DNA of 64,000 bases, from contig CBDBCY010000004.1 of assembly GCA_965203555.1 (NCBI GenBank), positions 1,376,001 to 1,440,000 of the forward strand, written 5' to 3'. Of the stretch, positions 6,745 through 35,970 are shown piece after piece (within the stretch, counting starts at the first letter, position 1; the number at the start of each line of letters is the position of its first letter). The notes under the pieces are model-generated. The model made no database searches. It saw only the letters and a program-made list of their open reading frames with translations, and was not told the origin of the DNA. The DNA is from Acidimicrobiia bacterium. GTDB taxonomy: Bacteria > Actinomycetota > Acidimicrobiia > Spongiisociales > ZC4RG35. A program made the position numbers and the translations under genes.

Positions 6745-6841
6745 TAGAGACCTGGGATCAACCCCAAGTGCAACAAGACCCGCTCGGGGAAAACCATGCG
6801 TCGCCTTCTCAAGAAAAGGCAAAAGTACCTTCGGCGACAGC

Positions 6842-7036
6842 TTGCCGTTTGTCCCACTGGTGCTCCATAGTGACTGATAGCCGAAACTCCCACGGCCCGA
6901 TACGGCGTCGCTCGGGCACAGGGATCATATTGCCGAAACGCCCCTTCCCAAGGGATCGGTCAAACGCGTCTCGGCCCAAGGGGGTGGTGGTGGGAGTTGG
7001 GCCCAATGAAGAAACCGACAGCAAACGTTTTTCGCG
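6842..7036 (+). ncRNA. Dispersed promoter plus structured-RNA element, copy D
   Basis: TGTCCC-N10-CATAGT; hairpin GCCCG/CGGGC with CGGCGTCG loop; GGGATCATA; stem GCCGAAACGC/GCGTCTCGGC; GGTGGTGG...GGGCCC tail; TTTCGCG. Confidence 0.6.
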
Positions 7037-12947: not shown

Positions 12948-14195
12948 GTGACCGTCACGCCCTCCGGGGTGCCCGACGCCGGCCCGGAGAAACTTGGCGC
13001 CGCCGCCTCATCTCGGATCCCGTGGGCGATGGTGCTGGCCGGGGCGGTGATCGGTCTGTTGTCCATGGGGATTCGCCAGTCGCTGGGGGTGTTCCTCCTG
13101 GCGGTCTCTGAGGACCTGGGACCGGGACGGGAGCCGTTCAGCCTGGCGGTGGCGGTGCTCAGCTTCCTGATGGGTTTGCCGGTTGCCGGGTACCTGGCGG
13201 ACCGCTACGACCACCGACGGGTCCTCTGGGTGTGCTCTCTCCTCTACGGCGGGGCCATGGTGATGGTCTCCCAACTCCACTCCTCGGCGGGCCTGGTGCT
13301 CTATCTGGGGGTGGTGGCGGGCCTCGGCACCAGCGGCCTGTCCTTCGGCGTGCTGATGGGCGCCGTGGGAAGGCTGGTGCCCGTGGATCGGCGGTCGGCG
13401 ATGATGGGAGTGGTTGCGGCCGGAACCTCGATGGGAATGCTGCTGGTGGCGCCCGCCGCCCAGTTCGGCCTGGAGGCATTCGGCTGGCGGGCTTCGTTCG
13501 CCACCATGGGGGCTGTGGTCCTGGTCATGAGTTCCCTGGCGTTCCTGTTTCCCCGCCAGGCGACCATGCAGGCCGCACAGGACGGATTCATCGACGAGCC
13601 CTTTTCCGTCGCCGTGCGCAAGGCCCGCCGGAACCGGAGCTACCTGCTGCTCACCGCCGGTTTCTTCGTGAACGGGTTCCACATCGGGATGATCGTCACC
13701 CATCTTCCCGCCTATCTGATAGACGGAGGGATATCCGGGACGGTGGCATCGGTGGTGCTGGCGGTGATCGGCGGAATCAACGTTTTCAGCTCACCCCTGT
13801 TCGGGCGGCTGGGCGACAGGCTGCGCAAACGAAACCTGCTGATGCTCATCTACGGGACGAGGGCCGTGCTGATCGCCGCGCTGCTGATCCTTCCCCTCAG
13901 CACGGCGACGGCCCTCGGGTTCGGCGTCTGCATCGGGGTGATGTGGATGGGTGCGGTGCCGCTGACCTCGGCCACGGTAGCTCATCTGCTGGGCGCCCGT
14001 TACCTCTCGGCACTCTTCGGCGTGGTCTTCTTCTCCCACCAGATCGGCGCCTCCATAGGAGGATGGCTGCCCGGCCGGGTGTTCGACGCCACCGGCTCCT
14101 ACCTGCCGGTCTGGCTGCTGGCCATCGGGCTCTCGGTGGCGGCCTTCTTCATCCACCTCCCCATCCGGGACCGAGGCGCCGCCGCCGGAGGCTAG
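12948..14195 (+). CDS. MFS transporter, tandem paralog
   Basis: Collinear and closely similar to the upstream MFS. Confidence 0.9.
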   Translation: MTVTPSGVPDAGPEKLGAAASSRIPWAMVLAGAVIGLLSMGIRQSLGVFLLAVSEDLGPGREPFSLAVAVLSFLMGLPVAGYLADRYDHRRVLWVCSLLYGGAMVMVSQLHSSAGLVLYLGVVAGLGTSGLSFGVLMGAVGRLVPVDRRSAMMGVVAAGTSMGMLLVAPAAQFGLEAFGWRASFATMGAVVLVMSSLAFLFPRQATMQAAQDGFIDEPFSVAVRKARRNRSYLLLTAGFFVNGFHIGMIVTHLPAYLIDGGISGTVASVVLAVIGGINVFSSPLFGRLGDRLRKRNLLMLIYGTRAVLIAALLILPLSTATALGFGVCIGVMWMGAVPLTSATVAHLLGARYLSALFGVVFFSHQIGASIGGWLPGRVFDATGSYLPVWLLAIGLSVAAFFIHLPIRDRGAAAGG

Positions 14196-14329
14196 GGTGT
14201 CCCCCCACAACCGTCACCTCGCCACAGGATCCTTGCGTTCGGCCCTCGGATGAGAGGCACGCCGCTGCTCCGTGCGGCGTGGTCAAGGGCATAAGTCAAC
14301 ATGGTATGGAACGCCCGGGTGGAACCCAC

Positions 14330-14570
14330 CCAGTTCCATTCGTCCCGGCGGCCCCGCAGGGTAGTGTCCGACACCCGCCCGCCCATCAGTCGTTCGGTGG
14401 TCACCCATGAACAACCGGTCACCAACCGGATCAGAATCCTCTCGAAACACACCCGATCCCGAATGCGGGGGTTGTGGCATCCCAGCGGATGGGTGTCCTC
14501 CCGTTCCGGTAACCGGCCTTTCACCGCTTCCCACACCATTTCCACCACTTTTAGGATCAAGCGCACGCAT
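14330..14570 (-). pseudogene. Truncated, frameshifted IS5-family transposase
   Basis: MRALDP then a shift in an A-run to VVEMVWEAV...HPLGCHNPRI.DRVCF..IL.RLVTGCSW...SDTTLR.RRDEW; no DDE domain follows. Confidence 0.75.
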
Positions 14571-14734
14571 AATTAGAGTCCTCCACCAGTTGGGGGTTGA
14601 GATTACAACTCCGTATCAAAACGGAGCCAACACCTCAACTGGTGGATTTACACCTACCCGCGAGGCCCTAAGGCACCCATCGGTAAAAGATTTAGTGTTT
14701 TTTTTTGACAGGTTGGTGATGTTGGGGGGTGTTT

Positions 14735-14756
14735 TGTCACACCGGTTTGGCATGCT
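14735..14756 (+). promoter_or_regulatory. RecA-NDp/PafBC-like promoter of the DUF222-HNH gene
   Basis: TGTCAC-N10-CATGCT, 6 nt before ATG 14763. Confidence 0.65.
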
Positions 14757-14762
14757 GTGTTC

Positions 14763-15983
14763 ATGGTTAGAACAGCAGTGAAGGGGCGGGTCGTCAACGA
14801 GATCGAGGTGGTCTTGCCGAACCTGTCGGTGGGCGATGCCACCTTGGAACAGTTACAGGATCGGTTGGTTTCCACTTTCCGAGCCGAGAACCAGGCGGCT
14901 GCGGTCCGTGCGGAGACGTTGGCGGAGTTAACCCGCCGAGAAGGAGCTCATTTGACGGAGAACACCCTCCGGGAGGCGGGTTTGCGACCCCGCCGCAAGG
15001 CCCGCTCCGAGGTAGAGACCGCCAAAGAACTAGAAGAGCTACCCAAGACATCAGAGGGCCTGCGCGAGGGGAAGATCCCCTATGACAACGCCCGTATCCT
15101 GGCCAGGGCCTCCCAACGGGGAGAGATAGACGAGAACGACCTGGTGCCCAAGGCTCGCACCCAGCCTCCGGACAAGTTCGCGGGAACGGTCCGTAAGTAT
15201 GAGCAGGAGCGGTCCGAAGATGATGGTGTGTCGCGCCTGGAGCATCAGAAGTCCCGGCGGTATGCCAAGATCCGCACCGACCTGAACGATGGCATGACGG
15301 TGTTGTACGGTCGGTTCGATCCTCTCACGGGTGCTCTCCTCGAGACCGCTCTGTCACAGAAGATGAACGAACTATGGCGTGAAGAAGACCCCCGTGCGAG
15401 GCGGACCCCCGGCCAACGGATGGCCGATGCCCTGGCGGGGTTGGTCACCCGAGAAGACACCGACGAAGAAAACAGTAGCCCGAGGGGGCCGAGGTTGTTG
15501 CTGATCGCCGACTACGACGTGGTCTCCCGGGAGCTACGCAACGGACGCCTCGGCGACGGGACCCCCATCCCCGTGGAAAAGATCCGGGACCTGGCCTGCC
15601 AATCCGACATTTTGCCCGGGATCTTCCGCGGGGTGTCACAACCATTGGACCTGGGACGGTCACGACGGACCGCCAGCGCCGCCCAACGCACAGCTCTCAT
15701 AGCCCGGGACAAGGCGTGTGTGGGATGCGGCGCCACCTCGAACTGGTGTCAGGCCCATCACATAGTCCCGTGGGCAATACAGGGCAACACCGACCTCGAC
15801 GATATGTGTTTGTTGTGCTCCCGCTGTCACCACAAGGTCCACGACGACCAATGGGTCGTGCGCCGGTCACCAACCGGCAAATACTCACTCCGACCGCCCC
15901 TGAAACACCACCGGAGAACACGCACCCGCAACAAAACCCAATACCGACGACACCCCCGGAGCGGCTTCAAACAACGAAAATGA
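14763..15983 (+). CDS. DUF222 (13E12-like) protein with C-terminal HNH endonuclease
   Basis: QRMADAL, LACQS, PLDLGRSRR...QRTALIARDKACVGC, CQAHHI.PW..G.TDLD...LCSRCHHKVH. Confidence 0.88.
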   Translation: MVRTAVKGRVVNEIEVVLPNLSVGDATLEQLQDRLVSTFRAENQAAAVRAETLAELTRREGAHLTENTLREAGLRPRRKARSEVETAKELEELPKTSEGLREGKIPYDNARILARASQRGEIDENDLVPKARTQPPDKFAGTVRKYEQERSEDDGVSRLEHQKSRRYAKIRTDLNDGMTVLYGRFDPLTGALLETALSQKMNELWREEDPRARRTPGQRMADALAGLVTREDTDEENSSPRGPRLLLIADYDVVSRELRNGRLGDGTPIPVEKIRDLACQSDILPGIFRGVSQPLDLGRSRRTASAAQRTALIARDKACVGCGATSNWCQAHHIVPWAIQGNTDLDDMCLLCSRCHHKVHDDQWVVRRSPTGKYSLRPPLKHHRRTRTRNKTQYRRHPRSGFKQRK

Positions 15984-15999
15984 ATCACTTGTCACAGGC

Positions 16000-16221
16000 T
16001 GTGAAAAAACAAGCGCCAAGAGGTTGATTACGTCCCACCAACAGCCCACACTGAAAGAAGCTAAACACCAAGACAGTTCGCTCAGACGTCAAGGGAACCG
16101 TCAAAGGGATCAAAGGGTCCACCGCCCCAATAGCCACACCCCAGGCTGCCCGGAACGCGACCGACCCACGGAAAGGTGGTGGCGGGGGAGGGAACCCATA
16201 ATTGGGGATCACAATTTCGCG
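16000..16221 (+). ncRNA. Dispersed promoter plus structured-RNA element, copy A, immediately 3' of the HNH gene
   Basis: TGTGAAAAAA; CGTCCC-N10-CACACT; CTAAACACCA; GTTC/GAAC stem around GACGTC; GGGATCAAA; GGGTC/GACCC stem; GGTGGTGGCGGGGGAGGGAACCC; ATTTCGCG. Confidence 0.6.
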
Positions 16222-16328
16222 ATTTTTCTGCCGTGATCGCGGATTGGCTGATCGTCCGGCCATCCTGCCGCAGACCGCTCGTCCGGCATTTACTCCTTGC
16301 CCGGGTCGTTCGCCCGAAACAGGGCCGG

Positions 16329-17333
16329 CTAAATGGTTCCGATCTGCACGGGGCCGCCGTTGTCGTGGGAACATTGGGCGGCCTCGGCCAGCGCCAGAGC
16401 AGCATATCCGTCCCTCCCGGTGGCGGCGGCCGAATTCTCTCCCCCTCGGACCAGCGCCAGGAACTCCTGCCACTGTCGCAGGTAGGACTCCTGGTAGCGC
16501 TCGATGAAGAAGTGGTGGAGCGCCGGTGTGGAGAACCCGCCGGCGGTGGCCAGACGGGTTTGCCGCGCCGGTGGGTCCACCGAGGCGATCTGGCCCTTCG
16601 ACCCGTTCACCTCGATGCGTTGCTCGTACCCGTACGCGGCGGCCCGGCTGTTCACGATCAGGCCCAATGCGCCGCTTTCATAGCGAAGGGAGATGAACGC
16701 CAGGTCCACGTCACCCAACTCCCCCGCCTCGGGGATGACCAGGCTGGTGGCGGTGACATTGACCTCCACCACCTCCTCGCCCAGCAGGTACCGCGCCATG
16801 TCGAAGTCGTGGATGGCCATGTCCCGGAACAGTCCTCCCGACACCGGCAGATAGTCGGCGGGCGGGGGCGCCGGATCCCGGCTGATTATCAACACCTGCC
16901 AGGGGGTCCCGATCTCACCCCGGACGATGCCGTCCCGCACCGCCCGGTGCCCGGGGTCGAGGCGGCGGTTGAAGCCCACCACCAGGGGGATCCCGGCCGT
17001 TTCGGCTGCCTCCACCGCCTCGGCGGCCTCGGCCAGGTCCAGGGAGATCGGCTTCTCGCAGAAGGCGGCGATCCCCGCCCGGGCGGCCATCTTGATGTAG
17101 CGGGGATGGGTGGGGGTGGAGGAACAGATCGCCACCGCGTCTATCCCCGACTCGAACAATGCGGCCTCGTCCTCCACGGTCCGCACACCCGTCTCCACCT
17201 CCGCCCGGCGAGCGACCTCGGGGACCGGTTCGTAGAGCGCGGCCAACTCCGCGCCGTCCACAAACCGGGAAAGAAGACCGGCGTGCATGGCGCCGATCCT
17301 GCCGTATCCGATCAGCCCGACCCTAAGGGTCAT
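16329..17333 (-). CDS. iolG: Inositol 2-dehydrogenase-like Gfo/Idh/MocA oxidoreductase
   Basis: GLIGYGRIG, CEKPIS, GFNRRLD, SGGLFRDMAIHDFD and YGYEQRIE motifs. Confidence 0.8.
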   Translation of the reverse strand: MTLRVGLIGYGRIGAMHAGLLSRFVDGAELAALYEPVPEVARRAEVETGVRTVEDEAALFESGIDAVAICSSTPTHPRYIKMAARAGIAAFCEKPISLDLAEAAEAVEAAETAGIPLVVGFNRRLDPGHRAVRDGIVRGEIGTPWQVLIISRDPAPPPADYLPVSGGLFRDMAIHDFDMARYLLGEEVVEVNVTATSLVIPEAGELGDVDLAFISLRYESGALGLIVNSRAAAYGYEQRIEVNGSKGQIASVDPPARQTRLATAGGFSTPALHHFFIERYQESYLRQWQEFLALVRGGENSAAATGRDGYAALALAEAAQCSHDNGGPVQIGTI

Positions 17334-20359: not shown

Positions 20360-20558
20360 GGGCCCATCCCCCGCCTCCACCTTTGCCATGGGTCCCGAGA
20401 GGCCGCGTCCAGCCGCAACCGGGCCGGCCTACCGGACAGTTTGATCCCTCGAAGCGGTCCGAACGACGCCGGAGCGGACCGTTTTGGTGTTTAGGTCCTG
20501 TCAATATGAACCACCGGTGGGACAGAATAAACCTCTGCGCCTGCTCTTTTTTCACAAC
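20360..20558 (-). ncRNA. Dispersed promoter plus structured-RNA element, copy B
   Basis: On the minus strand: TGTGAAAAAA; TGTCCC-N10-CATATT; CTAAACACCA; GGTCCG/CGGACC with CGGCGTCG loop; GGGATCAAA; AGGCCG/CGGCCT stem; GGTGGAGGCGGGG...GGGCCC. Confidence 0.62.
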
Positions 20559-27607: not shown

Positions 27608-27818
27608 GCTTCACTGTTCCCCGCAATCCTGACCACCAAACCCAAGCGACACAGCACCGCGGCCAGACCCTGCCGCTAACCGAGGCCACTCGCCGGAAGC
27701 GGGTCAGTTGCTACCGCCCATCCAAGCTGGCCTCCGCCCTGGCCTGGATAGACGTACTGCTTAAAGTAGTCCATGCCGGAGAGCTTCACTGTTCCCCGCA
27801 ATCCTGACCACCAAACCC
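27608..27818 (+). repeat. 36-bp perfect direct repeat (27608-27643 and 27783-27818) within a larger imperfect duplication of the psuG 3' end
   Basis: GCTTCACTGTTCCCCGCAATCCTGACCACCAAACCC occurs twice, each preceded by CTGGCCTCCGCCCTGGCC. Confidence 0.9.
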
Positions 27819-27829
27819 TGGACATCTAG

Positions 27830-28136
27830 TGTCCGCTCCTGCTGCCGGTGCCTGCTCGGCCGCTAACGCGTCGATATCGACGCGTTGTTTGTGCAGGTGG
27901 CGTTCCAACGCCGCGATGATGCGTCCCAGTTGTCCGGTTTCGCGCAACGCGGTGACCTTTTCCCAGGCGAAGAAGCGGTCGTTGTTTGTGCGGTGTTCCA
28001 ACCGAGTTGTCCGGTTTCGCGCAACGCGGTGACCTTTCCCAGGCGAAGAAGGGCGTACTTTCGATGCGTCCGATTCCAACGACAGGTACTCGTACACCTT
28101 GTCGCCCCTTCGACGGCGGGTCGTCTTAACGAACAT
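27830..28136 (-). pseudogene. IS1634-like transposase N-terminal remnant with an internal ~47-bp duplication
   Basis: MFVKTTRRRRGDKVYEYLSL and LG.V..LRETGQLGRII motifs; duplicated segment at 27928-27975 and 28005-28051. Confidence 0.65.
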
Positions 28137-32493: not shown

Positions 32494-33942
32494 ATGAACA
32501 AGACACGACTGGCGAGCCTATGTGTTGCTGCCCTGCTCGTGGCGGCCTCCTGCGGCGGAGCGGAGGACTCCGGTTCTCGGACGCCGACCACTGCTCGTGA
32601 GACCGATTGGGGATCGGGTATGACCTATGACGATTGCGGTGAACGGGGCCTGACCGATTACGGCCTTCGGACCGGTCAGAAGTGGATCGGGGACTTCTAC
32701 GCCGACCTGTACGAGTGCACGGCGCCCATCACCACAGCCGCCGGTTCCCAGCCGATCAGCGATTCCGCTCCCCCACCCACTACGAAGCCCGGAACGACCT
32801 CCCCCCAGCCACCGGCGACCTCCACCTCCACCACAACCCTGCTGCCCCTGCGCGGACTGCGCTATGAACTGGTTTTTGCCGGTGTCCGTGAGACCCTGGA
32901 CGACGAAGACGCCATGCCTCTGGAAATCGTGGGGCGACCGGGCGGCCGGTTCAACTACATGATCACCCGCGAGGGAAGGGTGTGGATCGTCGAGGAAGAC
33001 ACTTTCTCCAACCCGCCGGTGCTGGATCTGAGGGACTCTATCGCGATCGGATCCGAAACGGGACTGCTGGGACTGGCCCTCCACCCCACCGATCCGCAGC
33101 GGATGTTCCTCTATTACACCGACTTGGAGTTCGACATCATTCTCGCTGAATACCAACTCGATGACGAGTTGAGGAGAGCGATCCCCTCCAGCGCCAAGAC
33201 CTTGATGAAGATCCCCACCCGCAGTGACTTCCACAAGGGTGGAATGATCTCATTCGGCCCGGACGGCTATCTGTATATCGGGGTCGGGGACGACGGATAC
33301 AGCTTCAACGGCCAAGACCACACTACCTTGCTGGGCTCCATACTCCGCATCGATGTCGACGGAGGAGACCCCTATGGCATCCCCACCGACCAACCCCCTC
33401 TCAGCCCGGAGGCTCCGGAGGTATACCTGTACGGGATCCGCAACCCCTGGCGGTTCTGGATAGACCCGACGACCAATCTGATCTTCATAGGCGATGTCGG
33501 AGCCGATGCCTTTGAAGAGATCGATATAACTTCGCTCGACACGTCCGGCGCCAACTTCGGATGGTCGGTTCTGGAAGGACACCAATGGGGGCCCTTCAAC
33601 GAGGGGACCGCCTGCAGGGAGAACCCGGGAACGTGCGACACCAGTGGCTTCACTCCTCCCGCCCTGGCCCTTCGCCACAGTCCCGAGGTCTGCGCCGTCA
33701 TAAGCGGGATGGTGTACCGGGGGCAGGCCATCCCCGAACTCGACGGACACTACTTTTACTCGGATGCCTGCGGCGGCTTTCTCCGTAGCTTCCGATGGAA
33801 CGGGACACTGGCTGTGGACCTACGAGACTGGACCGAGCAGGTGGAGGCTCGAAAGCGGGTGCTCTCGTTCGGGGTGGACACCCAGGGAGAGATGTACGTG
33901 ATGACCGCCGACGACGTTTTCAGGTTGACGCCCGTCCGCTGA
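32494..33942 (+). CDS. PQQ-dependent glucose/sorbosone dehydrogenase family lipoprotein
   Basis: Lipobox AASC; ETGLLGLALHP, HKGG.I.FGPDGYLYIGVGD, GSILRID, YGIRNPWR and DVG...EEID motifs. Confidence 0.87.
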   Translation: MNKTRLASLCVAALLVAASCGGAEDSGSRTPTTARETDWGSGMTYDDCGERGLTDYGLRTGQKWIGDFYADLYECTAPITTAAGSQPISDSAPPPTTKPGTTSPQPPATSTSTTTLLPLRGLRYELVFAGVRETLDDEDAMPLEIVGRPGGRFNYMITREGRVWIVEEDTFSNPPVLDLRDSIAIGSETGLLGLALHPTDPQRMFLYYTDLEFDIILAEYQLDDELRRAIPSSAKTLMKIPTRSDFHKGGMISFGPDGYLYIGVGDDGYSFNGQDHTTLLGSILRIDVDGGDPYGIPTDQPPLSPEAPEVYLYGIRNPWRFWIDPTTNLIFIGDVGADAFEEIDITSLDTSGANFGWSVLEGHQWGPFNEGTACRENPGTCDTSGFTPPALALRHSPEVCAVISGMVYRGQAIPELDGHYFYSDACGGFLRSFRWNGTLAVDLRDWTEQVEARKRVLSFGVDTQGEMYVMTADDVFRLTPVR

Positions 33943-33960: not shown

Positions 33961-35970
33961 TTACCGCTGAAAGGTGATGCGCCACGAAGTGTCGACCAGA
34001 TCCGGGGGACAGGTCGCCCTGACGACAGTGGCGGGTGTCATCTCCAGGTATCCGACAGAGACCCAACCCTGGTAGGGATCGGTGTCGCCGCGCGCCATGT
34101 CGATCTGGCACCCATCTCCTTCGAAGACCGCCCGGACCAAGACGTCACCGACCTGAACCAGGAAGCCCGAGGTGTTGATCACCGGATCGAGGTCGGGCGC
34201 CAGGTGAAGGTTGGACTGCCAGCGAGAACTCGTTCTGTTGTAGAGACGGTCCCTGATGGTCAGAGACGACCCCGGCGTATAGGAGAAGGTTCTCTCGTGT
34301 CGAAGCAGTCCGGGGCGATCGACGAATCCCTCCACGACGAAACCGGAGTCGGTCGTCCTGATGGGTTGCAGGTGCGTCTCGGCGGGATCGACTTTGCGAG
34401 GATCAATCGGCCGTGACACGAGGCTCGGGATGTTGTGAGCCCGAGCGCTCAGGACGTAACTGCGCATGTGGTCCTTGTTGTAACCGTACTTACCGCTGTC
34501 GACAAAGATTTCGCGACCCCCTTCTATCAGCACGAAACCAAGGTCATCAGTGTGTTTGTGCCTGATGACCGCTCCCACCACGTTTACGAACATCGCGTTT
34601 ACAAACAGCATGCTGGACTCTTCGGCTCCAGGCAGGGAACGTATGATGGCGTACCCCGACTTCGTAAGATCGCGAACCGCCCAGCAACCCGCCTCTCCAT
34701 CGAGACAGTGCGGCTCGACCGGTCCGGTCAACGGCAACCCGATCCCTGCGCTGTCGCCCACCGGCACCCATCGTCCGTCGGGATAGGTCAACCAGGGGGT
34801 CACACGGGCGCCGTCCTCGATGAGGGTACGCACCCCTGGTAGCCGAGTCCGTTCCGCGATGCGAAGCCGTTGGAGGGCATCCAACACGATGCCGTGGTAG
34901 TTGGGTGAGTTCTCACGATGGACACTCTCGTCCGTGAACCACCGGTCCAGCAGCCTCGCGAAAGCCGTGTCCACATAGGATCGGGCGCTGTTGCAAACGC
35001 TTCGCCAACTGAGGACCGCGCACAGCAGGTTGAGGCCTGCAAGCTGAAACAGGCCGTGATTCCCCAGGGAAAGAAAACGAGGATCCAAAAGCTTTCGGAC
35101 ATGGAGTTCGGCCAACCGGGTCAGGGCGGCGAGATCGTCGTCTTCGATGTCGAGATTGCCGACGAATATATTGTCCAGCAAGAACGCCAGACGGGAGGCC
35201 CGGATGCCGGCGGCCATGTCATACCACTGGAAACGGCTCTCTCGATTGTCCTGGACATGGAACCGTTCCCAGTCGAGGGCAATGGCTGCGATGTGCTCGA
35301 GAGACCCGAGGTCACCGTCCTGGTAGGCGTATAGCCAGTACTCCATCATTACCCATGAATGAACGAGGAACTGCCAGTTGCGATCCTCGAAGGGATCGGC
35401 GGCCCAATCCATCGGGAGGGAGTAGTCCCACTCCGGGAGGTCCGGACGCGGCTGGAGTACACCCGGCGAGGGAGGCCGATGGTGCACCGACAATTCCTCG
35501 ACAACGACGCGGGGGCTGGAATAGTCGTCCGGCCGTAAAACGCCCGCCGGGACCGACCCCGAGGCAGGGGTTACGGCAGGCGCGGCGCAGTGATACAGAT
35601 TGGCATAGAAAGTGCCGTTCCTGATCCACCTCTTGCCCGTCACGGGACCGTAGTTCGTCAGGCCCCGCGACCGGCACTCCGAATACGGCGTACCCGATCC
35701 CCAATCAGGCTCCCGCGGAGTAGTCGCGGTGGGCGCCGTGCAGTGATACAGATTGGCATAGAAAGTGCCGTTCCTGATCCACCTCTTGCCCGTCACGGGA
35801 CCGTAGTTCGTCAGGCCCCGCGACCGGCACTCCGAATACGGCGTACCCGATCCCCAATCATGGTCCGACGCAAAAGCACTCGGAACACCATGGACCAGGG
35901 CACCCATCACCCCCACCAGCAACATAACCACCACCTCTCGGATCCCCGGCAAACCATGCCCACTCCTCAT
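33961..35970 (-). CDS. Secreted heparinase II/III-like polysaccharide lyase
   Basis: DRNW.F..H, NHGLFQ, HRENSPNYH, HKHTDDL, VDSGKYGYN and SARAHN motifs; signal peptide. Confidence 0.8.
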   Translation of the reverse strand: MRSGHGLPGIREVVVMLLVGVMGALVHGVPSAFASDHDWGSGTPYSECRSRGLTNYGPVTGKRWIRNGTFYANLYHCTAPTATTPREPDWGSGTPYSECRSRGLTNYGPVTGKRWIRNGTFYANLYHCAAPAVTPASGSVPAGVLRPDDYSSPRVVVEELSVHHRPPSPGVLQPRPDLPEWDYSLPMDWAADPFEDRNWQFLVHSWVMMEYWLYAYQDGDLGSLEHIAAIALDWERFHVQDNRESRFQWYDMAAGIRASRLAFLLDNIFVGNLDIEDDDLAALTRLAELHVRKLLDPRFLSLGNHGLFQLAGLNLLCAVLSWRSVCNSARSYVDTAFARLLDRWFTDESVHRENSPNYHGIVLDALQRLRIAERTRLPGVRTLIEDGARVTPWLTYPDGRWVPVGDSAGIGLPLTGPVEPHCLDGEAGCWAVRDLTKSGYAIIRSLPGAEESSMLFVNAMFVNVVGAVIRHKHTDDLGFVLIEGGREIFVDSGKYGYNKDHMRSYVLSARAHNIPSLVSRPIDPRKVDPAETHLQPIRTTDSGFVVEGFVDRPGLLRHERTFSYTPGSSLTIRDRLYNRTSSRWQSNLHLAPDLDPVINTSGFLVQVGDVLVRAVFEGDGCQIDMARGDTDPYQGWVSVGYLEMTPATVVRATCPPDLVDTSWRITFQR
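35587..35860 (-). repeat. Two identical 121-bp intragenic repeats (35587-35707 and 35740-35860) encoding the two-Cys module
   Basis: Exact nucleotide duplication with a 153-bp period. Confidence 0.92.

What the first reader, a model, noticed from the sequence alone, without database searches (positions are those of the whole stretch)
14735..16221. DUF222-HNH nuclease gene followed directly by a copy of the RNA cassette: possible nuclease-RNA system
Copy A starts 16 bp after the HNH stop codon, on the same strand, and both carry the same promoter motif. The protein has an Arg-rich basic tail compatible with nucleic-acid binding. DUF222-HNH (13E12) genes are multicopy and damage-induced in mycobacteria, but I know of no RNA partner. 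By analogy to IscB/TnpB with omega RNAs, this could be an autonomous unit whose stand-alone cassettes are trans-acting RNAs or non-autonomous derivatives. This rests on one co-occurrence and is a hypothesis only.
Basis: inference. Interest (0 to 1): 0.72.

Follow-up and report, generated by a model that had tools for sequence, protein, structure and literature searches.

The report
HNH gene beside a mobile RNA cassette
A damage-inducible HNH nuclease gene sits flush against a small repeated non-coding element because it was inserted next to an element already there, and although such pairs recur far too often for chance, nothing shows that the RNA guides the nuclease.

Summary
Observation confirmed. 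A 408-aa DUF222-HNH gene (14757-15983, +) is followed about 16 bp later, on the same strand, by one copy of a ~230-bp repeat.

- **Copy numbers:** the genome holds 26 such HNH genes and about 49 cassettes.
- **Shared motif:** it fits the actinobacterial RecA-NDp/PafBC DNA-damage promoter. It also precedes recA, rmuC and dnaB, and a pafABC operon is present.
- **Cassette:** non-coding, absent from Rfam, in 16 of 16 genomes of the genus at 20-72 matches each.
- **Linkage is real:** 12 of 26 HNH genes here, and 31 of 68 in five relatives, have a cassette within 600 bp (random expectation 1.8 of 26).

Evidence against an IscB/TnpB-like unit:
- Arrangements vary.
- About 80% of cassettes stand alone.
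- DUF222 genes occur in 21 of 22 searched genomes without cassettes.
- Copy numbers are uncoupled.
- At two orthologous sites relatives carry the cassette alone or nothing, so the HNH arrived later.
- The variable regions show little excess of matches to the genome.

One divergent HNH lineage does travel with its own cassette variant. Best reading: two separate damage-regulated mobile elements, with HNH elements preferentially landing at, or spreading with, cassettes.

The parts
12948..14195 (+). Left flank gene, MFS transporter, used as an anchor for the orthologous-site comparison
   Evidence: Pfam MFS_1, 7.3e-43. Orthologues lie next to the Gfo gene in relatives.
14192..14566 (-). Fragment of an IS4/IS5-family transposase (DUF4096). 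It is part of the ~1.8-kb segment present here but missing at the orthologous site in relatives.
   Evidence: Pfam DUF4096, 30.7 bits, below the 34.3 cut-off. The segment is absent in G003, G010, G005, G006, G007 and G008.
14735..14756 (+). RecA-NDp/PafBC-type promoter of the HNH gene: TGTCACAC, 8 nt, CATGCT. The -10 hexamer ends 6 nt before ATG 14763, so the mRNA is probably leaderless (inferred).
   Evidence: Sequence. The same box, -10 and a 6-8 nt gap to ATG occur in 20 of 26 HNH genes. The consensus tTGTCRgtg-8nt-TannnT is quoted in the PMC5656591 introduction.
14757..15983 (+). DUF222-HNH ('13E12-type') endonuclease gene, 408 aa from GTG 14757. The likely real start is ATG 14763. It has a basic C-terminal tail.
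   Evidence: CxxC, HH and H columns are invariant in 20 homologues. The HNH part resembles group II intron maturase, IscB and McrA HNH domains only. It is 58-65% identical to most paralogues.
15990..16010 (+). 5' edge of cassette copy A: TTGTCACAGGCTGTGAAAAAA (the YTGYGAAA motif followed by an A-run). The HNH unit abuts it.
   Evidence: The same edge occurs in a solitary copy (C4:1829145) and in the cassette-only orthologous sites of G003 and G010.
16024..16052 (+). Cassette promoter: TTGATT, 17 nt, CACACT, with a degenerate PafBC-type box CGTCCCAC in the spacer
   Evidence: Alignment of 30 copies: TTGAC, TGTC(A/C)CA and CATAYT are the best-conserved 5' blocks. 21 of the 53 strict motif hits lie in cassettes.
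16059..16206 (+). Predicted non-coding RNA body (ends inferred): hairpin P2 arms at 16074-16080 and 16094-16100 with a conserved loop, AGGGATCA, a hypervariable middle, the G-rich GGTGGTGGCGGGGGAGGG at 16175-16192, and a small hairpin at 16195-16206
   Evidence: P2 is 90.9% paired, with 8 cells changed on both sides and 0 of 500 shuffles reaching its covariation score. There is no conserved reading frame: variable-region length mod 3 is 11/11/8. No Rfam family matches. The minimum-free-energy z-score of copy A is only -0.55.
16215..16222 (+). Tail motif TTTCGCGA, the inverted counterpart of the 5' TCGCGAAA/TTGTGAAA motif. Many copies have two, about 20 nt apart.
   Evidence: By regular expression, a 5' motif occurs in 23 of 48 copies, a 3' motif in 28 of 48, and both in 19 of 48.
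16329..17333 (-). Right flank gene, Gfo/Idh/MocA oxidoreductase, convergent with the cassette. It is the second anchor for the orthologous-site comparison.
   Evidence: Pfam.
6822..7006 (+). Solitary cassette copy
   Evidence: nhmmer 5.7e-22; R1 3.3e-22
20360..20552 (-). Solitary cassette copy. It is present at the same site in G008 and absent in G001.
43808..44017 (-). Solitary cassette copy (type with an extra hairpin)
48688..48903 (-). Divergent cassette copy (GGCGGCGGGTCGGGTGGG tail type)
   Evidence: nhmmer 1.1e-11. Not found by R1.

Best explanation
Two separate, DNA-damage-regulated selfish elements lie side by side. The gene is one of 26 DUF222-HNH ('13E12-type') endonuclease genes. 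The cassette is one of about 49 copies of a genus-restricted, gain/loss-polymorphic intergenic element. That element carries its own promoter and probably gives a ~150-nt non-coding RNA with one conserved hairpin and a G-rich 3' tail. The motif they share is the RecA-NDp/PafBC damage promoter, so both should be switched on together after DNA damage.

At this locus the cassette was there first. A ~1.8-kb segment (IS fragment plus HNH gene) was later inserted flush against its 5' edge. Across the genus, HNH genes sit next to cassettes far more often than chance allows. HNH elements therefore either prefer cassette edges as landing sites, or are copied together with an adjoining cassette once linked.

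Shown here: the families, copy numbers, motif, enrichment, presence/absence states, and lack of coding potential. Inferred: transcription and RNA ends, PafBC control, the order of events (by parsimony), and the targeting mechanism. The RNA's function is unknown. I see no evidence that it guides the nuclease.
For: **Families and copy numbers.** Pfam DUF222 plus HNH. 26 DUF222 matches in the genome. 48 nhmmer cassette copies plus 1 found by R1.

**Promoter.** The strict motif gives 53 hits against 4 for the reversed control: 21 in cassettes, 24 just upstream of HNH genes, 8 elsewhere. I scanned 14 of the 67 relaxed intergenic hits, those with a TGTCAC core. They include recA (35 nt upstream), RmuC, DnaB, an SMC_N/AAA_23 protein, DUF5131 and TnpB. 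The consensus tTGTCRgtg-8nt-TannnT comes from a passage of PMC5656591. [quoted passage not shown] A pafA-pafB-pafC operon is present.

**Cassette first.** In the MFS|Gfo intergenic region, G005, G006, G007 and G008 have 47-196 bp and no R1 match. G003 and G010 have the cassette alone (88.6 and 96.5 bits). The window has IS fragment, HNH and cassette. A second locus (C4:2819873) shows the same: G004 and G009 have the cassette only, G002 and G012 are empty, and G000 has both.

**Cassette gain and loss.** The copy at window 20360-20552 is present in G008 and absent in G001.

**Enrichment.** 12 of 26 HNH genes have a cassette within 600 bp, against a mean of 1.84 and a maximum of 8 in 2000 permutations. 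In five relatives the figure is 31 of 68: 21 downstream on the same strand, 8 upstream on the same strand, 2 upstream on the opposite strand (3 of the 71 rows were dropped as second stretches of a gene or below cut-off). In the window-type lineage, 6 of 21 loci have a downstream co-oriented cassette, and the 5 of those whose junction I printed, plus the window, show at least 4 unrelated junction sequences.

**Independence of the two elements.** DUF222 is in 40 of 41 genomes. The cassette is in 16 of 16 genomes of the genus but only 2 of 24 others, one of them weak. Matches per genome: G006 72 cassette against 5 DUF222, G004 28 against 2, G033 63 against 2.

**Non-coding.**
Against: - Transcription of the cassette is not shown.
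- The minimum-free-energy z-score of copy A is -0.55. Only one 7-bp helix has covariation support, and that rests on paralogues of a single genome.
- Copy A's own box is degenerate (CGTC, not TGTC).
- A divergent HNH lineage (C4:1669250 and its relatives) shares gene plus about 225-258 bp of cassette across non-syntenic loci. A profile built from four foreign copies ranks the own-genome partner first, 77 bits against 48 for the next. Five to six near-identical copies here include a convergent cassette in the repeat unit. So linkage can be stable, as a functional pair would be.
- 5-6 of the 12 adjacent pairs here are one recent amplification, and the pairs in relatives are not phylogenetically independent.
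- The order of events rests on parsimony without a species tree.
- Exact insertion boundaries and target duplications could not be resolved because the intergenic DNA is too diverged.
Confidence: 0.55

Rival explanations
1. Nuclease-RNA partnership. The cassette RNA is a cofactor or guide of the DUF222-HNH nuclease. HNH plus cassette is the autonomous unit, and solitary cassettes act in trans or are non-autonomous copies.
For: Strong, mostly co-oriented linkage: 12 of 26 here, and 31 of 68 in relatives with 29 of those 31 on the same strand. The divergent lineage carries its own cassette variant as a unit. Both are under the same damage promoter, so they would be co-expressed. The cassette has a hypervariable internal segment between conserved blocks. 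The protein has a basic tail.
Against: - No fixed architecture: four arrangements occur here.
- 14 of 26 HNH genes have no cassette within 600 bp.
- DUF222 is present in 21 of the 22 searched genomes that gave no cassette match.
- An 18-copy DUF222-HNH family elsewhere has no conserved 3' non-coding part.
- G033 has 63 cassette matches but only 2 weak DUF222 matches.
- The cassette predates the HNH at two loci.
- Variable regions show only a slight excess of matches to the genome, 71 against 35-54 in shuffles.
- Only DUF222 and HNH families matched, with no RuvC, and no structural match was found.
Confidence: 0.12
2. Autonomous/non-autonomous pair at the DNA level. Cassettes are MITE-like elements moved in trans by the DUF222-HNH protein, which recognises their TCGCGAAA/TTTCGCGA end motifs.
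For: Cassettes show presence/absence polymorphism. Inverted end motifs occur at both ends in 19 of 48 copies. A related inverted motif, TTTTCACAAC, lies upstream of the HNH promoters. Cassettes are high in copy number and restricted to the genus.
Against: - Copy numbers are uncoupled, and G033 has 63 cassette matches with almost no DUF222.
- The ends of the main-lineage HNH units (TAGGGCGTGTTCAC ... GTGAACACGCCCTA) differ from the cassette ends.
- No target-site duplication could be seen.
- HNH enzymes are not known transposases (recalled).
Confidence: 0.15
3. The cassette acts in cis on the neighbouring HNH gene. Convergent copies would act as antisense RNAs, and co-oriented copies as a terminator/insulator module that limits a potentially harmful nuclease.
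For: Seven convergent copies lie 97-146 bp from HNH stop codons, so their transcripts would run into the gene's 3' end. Copy A lies directly after the stop codon. No canonical terminator follows the HNH gene.
Against: About 80% of cassettes are not next to an HNH gene. Orientation relative to neighbouring genes is mixed: the upstream gene is co-oriented in 31 of 48 and the downstream gene in 20 of 48. The cassette was present before the HNH at two loci.
Confidence: 0.08
4. Coincidence. Both elements simply accumulate in the few intergenic regions that tolerate insertions.
For: All copies are intergenic, and 41 of 48 are clear of my crude gene calls. Other mobile DNA also sits at cassette edges: the IS fragment here and the single TnpB gene.
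Against: The observed 12 of 26 compares with a mean of 1.84 and a maximum of 8 when cassettes are placed at random among the 765 intergenic intervals of at least 230 bp. Strand co-orientation holds in 29 of 31 pairs in relatives. HNH stop codons repeatedly lie within about 3-50 nt of the cassette 5' edge.
Confidence: 0.05

Closest known systems
REP13E12 / 13E12 repeat family (DUF222-HNH genes) of Mycobacterium tuberculosis
   Same: Same Pfam architecture (DUF222 plus HNH) and multicopy. The promoter is of the RecA-NDp type. A passage of PMC3381160 states that 13E12 genes are damage-induced and contain RecA_NDp, and calls them insertion elements. PMC13157036 equates 13E12 with DUF222.
   Different: The host is a different class (Acidimicrobiia MAG relatives). 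There are 26 copies in 3.4 Mb. Many copies lie next to a second repeated non-coding element. My literature searches (listings and passages only) turned up no RNA or cassette partner for 13E12 genes.
IscB/HEARO and TnpB omega-RNA systems (OMEGA)
   Same: A mobile nuclease gene with an HNH domain sits next to a structured non-coding RNA that is multicopy in the genome. The HNH domain is weakly similar to IscB HNH.
   Different: The only families matched were DUF222 and HNH, so no RuvC or other IscB domain was found. The RNA has no fixed position, most RNA copies are solitary, no guide-like complementarity was found, and the RNA carries its own promoter. The only TnpB gene of the genome is a separate element.
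RecA-NDp / PafBC regulon promoters of Actinobacteria
   Same: The box TGTCAC, an 8-9 nt spacer and an NANNNT -10 hexamer match in geometry. The same motif precedes recA, rmuC and dnaB, and pafBC genes are present.
   Different: Here most strong instances (45 of 53) belong to two repeat families, not to repair genes. Cassette copies also have a good TTGAC -35 element. The last three box positions read CAC/CAG rather than gtg. Induction is untested.
Promoter-bearing miniature repeats such as MITEs or Correia-type elements (comparison recalled, not tested against sequences)
   Same: A short, high-copy, intergenic, lineage-restricted element with presence/absence polymorphism, inverted end motifs and an outward-acting promoter.
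   Different: Copies are only 65-75% alike, with conserved blocks around a hypervariable middle. A conserved hairpin and a G-rich tail suggest selection on an RNA. No target duplication was seen and no cognate transposase was identified.
Free-standing HNH homing endonuclease genes (recalled)
   Same: A selfish HNH gene inserted between genes. It spreads with variable amounts of flanking DNA and is found at a preferred kind of site.
   Different: The host is a bacterial chromosome rather than a phage. The large DUF222 N-terminal domain has no structural match. The target would be a dispersed repeat rather than an allelic site. Cleavage specificity is unknown.

Membership tests
DUF222-HNH / 13E12 family | DUF222 domain above Pfam's gathering score | tested here: met
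   97 bits against a cut-off of 24.4, residues 45-318
DUF222-HNH / 13E12 family | C-terminal HNH motif with zinc-binding cysteines | tested here: met
   PF01844 scores 29.5 bits against 21.4. C321, C324, H334, H335, C354, H358 and H362 are invariant in 20 homologues.
DUF222-HNH / 13E12 family | Multicopy and damage-inducible through RecA-NDp | tested here: inconclusive
   26 copies. The motif with the right geometry occurs in 20 of 26. Induction itself cannot be tested here.
IscB/TnpB-omega RNA (OMEGA) | RuvC-type nuclease domain in the protein | tested here: not met
   The Pfam scan gave only DUF222, HNH and HNH_2. Similarity to solved structures is confined to the HNH motif.
IscB/TnpB-omega RNA (OMEGA) | RNA at a fixed place relative to the gene in essentially all copies | tested here: not met
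   14 of 26 HNH genes have no cassette within 600 bp, and four arrangements occur among the other 12. 37 of 68 in relatives have none.
IscB/TnpB-omega RNA (OMEGA) | A guide segment matching target or flanking DNA | tested here: inconclusive
   Variable regions gave 71 short matches against 35-54 in mononucleotide shuffles, none convincing. Targets outside this genome were not searched.
RecA-NDp / PafBC-dependent promoter | tTGTCRgtg, 8 nt, TAnnnT upstream of the transcription start | tested here: met
   HNH: TGTCACAC-N8-CATGCT. Cassette consensus: TGTCACAG-N8/9-CATAYT. The consensus is quoted in PMC5656591. Copy A's box is degenerate.
RecA-NDp / PafBC-dependent promoter | Regulator present and motif in front of core repair genes | tested here: met
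   pafA, pafB (WYL, WCX) and pafC (HTH_PafC, WYL, WCX) are present. The motif precedes recA, rmuC, dnaB and an SMC-like gene.
RecA-NDp / PafBC-dependent promoter | PafBC-dependent induction by DNA damage | not testable with these tools
   No usable expression data; see Tried and rejected.
MITE-like non-autonomous element | Presence/absence polymorphism at orthologous sites | tested here: met
   Three sites. The copy upstream of pafA is present in 3 of the 7 genomes checked.
MITE-like non-autonomous element | Terminal inverted repeats and a target-site duplication | tested here: inconclusive
   The end motifs TCGCGAAA and TTTCGCGA occur together in 19 of 48 copies. No duplication is resolvable because the flanks are too diverged.
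Any described RNA family (Rfam 15) | Match at or near the gathering score | tested here: not met
   Nothing at the cassette at gathering thresholds, nor at E up to 10 in 14400-16500.
Structured non-coding RNA | Conserved secondary structure with covariation | tested here: inconclusive
   One 7-bp hairpin is 90.9% paired, with 3 pairs changed on both sides. RNAalifold finds nothing else on this alignment. The z-score of copy A is -0.55.

The most novel reading that the evidence does not exclude
The DUF222-HNH nuclease is directed to cassette loci by the cassette itself: by its damage-induced G-rich RNA, or by the R-loop or G-quadruplex that its transcription would create. This would be an HNH-only, RNA- or structure-directed homing system. 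The divergent lineage that carries its own cassette would be the autonomous form, and the roughly 40 solitary cassettes would be landing pads. It would give the long-unexplained 13E12 family a mechanism.
Probability: 0.1. Interest if true: 0.85.

Novelty: new variant of a known kind. Interest (0 to 1): 0.5.

Why it matters
DUF222-HNH ('13E12') genes are abundant in Actinobacteria, strongly induced by DNA damage and linked to genome rearrangements. How they move and what they cut is unknown.

This genus offers a natural experiment:
- dozens of copies;
- clear filled, half-filled and empty sites;
- a second repeat that marks where the HNH genes tend to land.

The cassette itself is an undescribed high-copy element. 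It places a RecA-NDp/PafBC-type promoter and a probable small RNA at 20-70 sites per genome. That could rewire the damage response of these sponge- and coral-associated bacteria.

If the linkage proved functional it would be a new kind of nuclease-RNA pairing. If not, it is still a usable handle on 13E12 mobility.

Tried and rejected
- **Expression.** One search for sequencing runs and one laying of contigs. The only RNA-library run (X9, held as contigs) covered 14668-14842, 15331-15470 and 15491-15524, and did not cover the cassette. Contigs show no RNA ends, DNA may be present in that library, and missing cover proves nothing. No conclusion on cassette transcription.
- **Protein structure.** The AlphaFold2 model has mean pLDDT 67 and the HNH part is poor. 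Foldseek against the PDB gave no match at E<=0.001. The domain's fold remains unassigned.
- **Solved structures by sequence.** Only the HNH motif matched, plus a weak ParB-like stretch at E 0.014.
- **Small protein in the cassette.** Rejected. The length of the variable region mod 3 is 11/11/8, and stop codons are scattered.
- **Long-range pairing of CACC with GGUG.** No compensating changes by eye. Not pursued.
- **Guide-like matches of variable regions.** 71 against 35-54 in shuffles. The best was 22 nt with 1 mismatch for copy A at C4:3076505, taken as chance.
- **'Master copy' upstream of pafA.** Rejected. It is present in G000, G005 and G011 but not in G002, G010, G013 or G014.
- **Exact insertion boundaries and target duplications.** Intergenic DNA was too diverged for both the HNH unit and the cassette.
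- **Consensus promoter and terminator scan of 14500-16500.** No sigma-70 consensus match, and no terminator after the HNH gene or the cassette.
- **Pyrrolysine.** The Rfam PYLIS_3 hit lies in an intact MttB-family ORF with no in-frame TAG.
Full report
**What is at the coordinates.** The window lies in a 3.4-Mb, 62% G+C genome. Its closest named relatives are Acidimicrobiia MAGs, several from sponge metagenome bins. ORF 14757-15983 (+) encodes 408 aa matching Pfam DUF222 (97 bits) and HNH (29.5 bits). The cysteines and histidines of the HNH motif are invariant among 20 homologues, and the last 30 residues are strongly basic. Directly after the stop codon (15981-15983), on the same strand, lies a ~230-bp element, from about 15990 to 16222. 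Upstream of the gene lies a fragment of an IS4/IS5 transposase (14192-14566, minus strand). The outer flanks are an MFS transporter gene and a convergent Gfo/Idh/MocA gene.

**The cassette is a real, large family.**
- Iterated nhmmer on the genome finds 48 copies at E<1e-3, and the covariance model R1 adds one more. Five lie in the window.
- Copies are only 65-75% alike but share ordered blocks: a 5' edge YTGYGAAA plus an A-run; TTGAC; TGTC(A/C)CA; CATAYTG; AAACACC; a hairpin CGGUCCG...CGGACCG with a conserved loop; AGGGAUCA; a 50-85-nt hypervariable stretch; GGUGGNGGCGGGGGAGGG; a short CCC-loop-GGG hairpin; and one or two TTTTCGCG motifs.
- The hairpin is 90.9% paired, with 8 cells changed on both sides. 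None of 500 shuffles reached its covariation score. The rows are paralogues of one genome, so this is modest support.
- RNAalifold finds nothing else on this alignment, and copy A folds no better than shuffles (z = -0.55).
- There is no conserved reading frame and no Rfam match.
- 41 of 48 copies lie clear of my crude gene calls. The upstream gene is co-oriented in 31 of 48 and the downstream gene in 20 of 48. It is therefore not a 5' leader of a particular gene.

**The shared motif is a DNA-damage promoter.**
- The HNH gene has TGTCACAC-N8-CATGCT at 14735-14756. Cassettes have TGTCACAG-N8/9-CATAYT inside a TTGAC-17-CATAYT promoter.
- A strict version of the motif occurs 53 times in the genome against 4 for a reversed control: 21 in cassettes, 24 just upstream of HNH genes, 8 elsewhere.
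- I then scanned a relaxed version and sent to Pfam 14 of its 67 intergenic hits, those with a TGTCAC core. They include recA (35 nt upstream), rmuC, dnaB, an SMC_N/AAA_23 gene, DUF5131 and the genome's only tnpB.
- The mycobacterial RecA-independent promoter consensus is 'tTGTCRgtg - 8 nt - TannnT' (PMC5656591, passage from the introduction). PafBC acts through it (PMC6789036 and PMC8223512, passages). The 13E12 genes of M. tuberculosis 'contain the RecA_NDp' and are damage-induced (PMC3381160, passages).
- This genome has a pafA-pafB-pafC operon.
- In 20 of 26 HNH genes the -10 hexamer ends 6-8 nt before an ATG. This suggests leaderless mRNAs and, here, a start at ATG 14763 (inference).
Induction itself is inferred.

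**Is the adjacency more than one co-occurrence? Yes.**
- The genome has 26 DUF222 genes. Most are 70-98% identical in protein. The window's copy is an outlier at 58-65%, and C4:1669250 is a second outlier at 44-50%.
- Twelve of 26 have a cassette within 600 bp. When 49 cassettes are placed at random in the 765 intergenic intervals of at least 230 bp, the mean is 1.84 and the maximum 8 in 2000 trials.
- The arrangements differ: seven downstream and convergent at 97-146 bp; two downstream and co-oriented (the window at 20 bp, and C4:1669250); two upstream and co-oriented at 226 and 269 bp; one upstream and divergent.
- Five of the convergent cases are one recent amplification whose repeat unit runs about 375 bp past the stop codon and includes the cassette. 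The independent events here number about seven.
- In five relatives with complete hit lists, 31 of 68 DUF222 genes have a cassette within about 600 bp: 21 downstream co-oriented, 8 upstream co-oriented, 2 upstream opposite. I dropped 3 of the 71 rows, as second stretches of one gene or below cut-off. These genomes are kin, so the counts are not independent.
- Among 21 loci of the window-type lineage from named MAGs, 6 have a co-oriented cassette just downstream. The 5 of those whose junction I printed, plus the window, show at least four unrelated junction sequences, which points to repeated juxtaposition.

**Who came first.**
- Using the MFS and Gfo genes as anchors, the orthologous intergenic region is 47-196 bp with no cassette match in G005, G006, G007 and G008. 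It holds a cassette alone in G003, the closest relative (92-94% identity in the flanks), and in G010 (R1 88.6 and 96.5 bits). Only in this genome does it hold IS fragment, HNH and cassette.
- The cassette 5' edge seen in G003 and G010 (..CTGTGAAAAAA / ..GTCGTGAAAAAAA) is where the extra ~1.8 kb ends in the window.
- A second locus behaves the same way. The cassette at C4:2819873 is present alone in G004 and G009 and absent in G002 and G012. In this genome it is followed by an HNH unit.
- By parsimony, without a species tree, cassettes were there first and HNH segments arrived beside them.
- Cassettes themselves come and go. The copy at window 20360-20552 is in G008 but not G001. The copy 94 bp upstream of pafA is in 3 of the 7 genomes checked.

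**Are the two elements interdependent? Mostly not.**
- R1 finds the cassette in 16 of 16 genomes of the genus (20-72 matches each, capped at 72). Outside the genus it appears in only 2 of 24 genomes of the order: G033 with 63 matches and G023 with one weak match.
- DUF222 is in 40 of 41 genomes. Both tallies include two genomes flagged unpublished, G027 and G038.
- Matches per genome do not track each other: G006 72 cassette against 5 DUF222, G004 28 against 2, G003 32 against 3, G033 63 against 2 weak.
- In another Acidimicrobiales genome, 18 DUF222-HNH copies share a unit that ends 0-20 bp after the stop codon, with no conserved 3' non-coding part.
- The variable cassette segments show only a slight excess of short matches elsewhere in the genome, 71 against 35-54 in shuffles.
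- The protein matched only DUF222 and HNH families, with no RuvC. Its N-terminal domain has no structural match.

**What speaks for a tighter bond.** The divergent lineage (C4:1669250 and its relatives in five genomes) shares gene plus about 225-258 bp of a distinct cassette variant across non-syntenic loci. A profile built from four foreign copies ranks the own-genome partner first among all cassettes, 77 bits against 48 for the next. Once linked, HNH and cassette can therefore be inherited or copied as one unit. Strand co-orientation in relatives (29 of 31) and HNH stop codons lying 3-50 nt from the cassette edge suggest a specific relation to that edge.

**Verdict.** The best-supported reading is two separate damage-regulated selfish elements. 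The HNH gene in the window was inserted at the 5' edge of an older cassette, and HNH elements in this genus preferentially land at, or spread along with, cassettes. The mechanism of that preference is unknown. It could be recognition of the edge motif, of transcription-induced structures in the G-rich tail, or copying by recombination with co-conversion of flanks. A guide-RNA nuclease in the IscB/TnpB sense fails the tests that could be run, but RNA binding was not testable. The cassette is, as far as my five literature searches show (listings and passages only, no supplements read), an undescribed element.

Noticed in passing
own genome, e.g. C4:1177482-1178726 and C4:2820355-2821590 with about 200 bp upstream and 35 bp downstream: Main-lineage DUF222-HNH genes sit in ~1.5-kb repeat units running from about -200 to +35 around the gene. 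The units are bounded by inverted repeats, TAGGGCGTGTTCAC ... GTGAACACGCCCTA. A strict regular expression finds both ends in 6 of 26, and more are visible by eye. This looks like an IS-like unit. My searches listed no paper describing it.
   Followed up: partly
own genome C2:86581-88196: The only TnpB gene of the genome (Cas12f1-like_TNB plus OrfB_IS605) has a TGTCACAC box at its 5' end. A cassette variant lies 92 bp downstream on the same strand, so a second kind of mobile nuclease gene also abuts a cassette edge.
   Followed up: partly
own genome C4:2616417-2620056 (locus L135): A cassette lies 94 bp upstream of, and co-oriented with, the pafA-pafB-pafC operon, which encodes the presumed regulator of the motif. 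Read-through could create feedback. The copy is present in G000, G005 and G011 but not in G002, G010, G013 or G014.
   Followed up: partly
window 38475-40025 (-), Rfam hit at 38879-38978: The Rfam PYLIS_3 match (60 bits, gathering score 38) lies inside an intact 516-aa MttB-family ORF with no in-frame TAG. This is a non-pyrrolysine MttB homologue, not evidence of pyrrolysine use.
   Followed up: yes
window 14601-14667: A ~65-bp piece just upstream of the HNH promoter continues into many different sequences in metagenome contigs: loose ends occur at 14601-14608 and at 14667 in three runs. It looks like the end of another repeat or IS.
   Followed up: no
downstream tails of cassettes, e.g. own genome C4:2445617-2445690 and C4:1242010-1242087: Many cassettes end with two direct TTTTCGCG motifs about 20 nt apart (TTTTCGCGGGATAGGG..TTTCGCGG). 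These are the inverted counterpart of the 5' GTCGCGAAAA. They could be binding sites for an unknown protein.
   Followed up: no
window 48688-48903 (-) and ten other places in the genome: A divergent cassette subtype with the tail GGCGGCGGGTCGGGAGGG is found by the nhmmer profile but not by R1 (11 copies, counted by eye). Six of them are the convergent partners of one HNH subfamily. In those, an AGGAGG-N-ATG follows the tail and opens a frame antisense to the HNH 3' end.
   Followed up: partly
window 35574-35866 and 27608-28040: A 153-bp tandem duplication that is 96% alike (35574-35713 and 35727-35866) has inverted partners near 32585-32735. Separately, exact 36-nt repeats lie 175 bp apart (27608 and 27783), with a second repeat pair at 27913 and 27990.
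   Followed up: no
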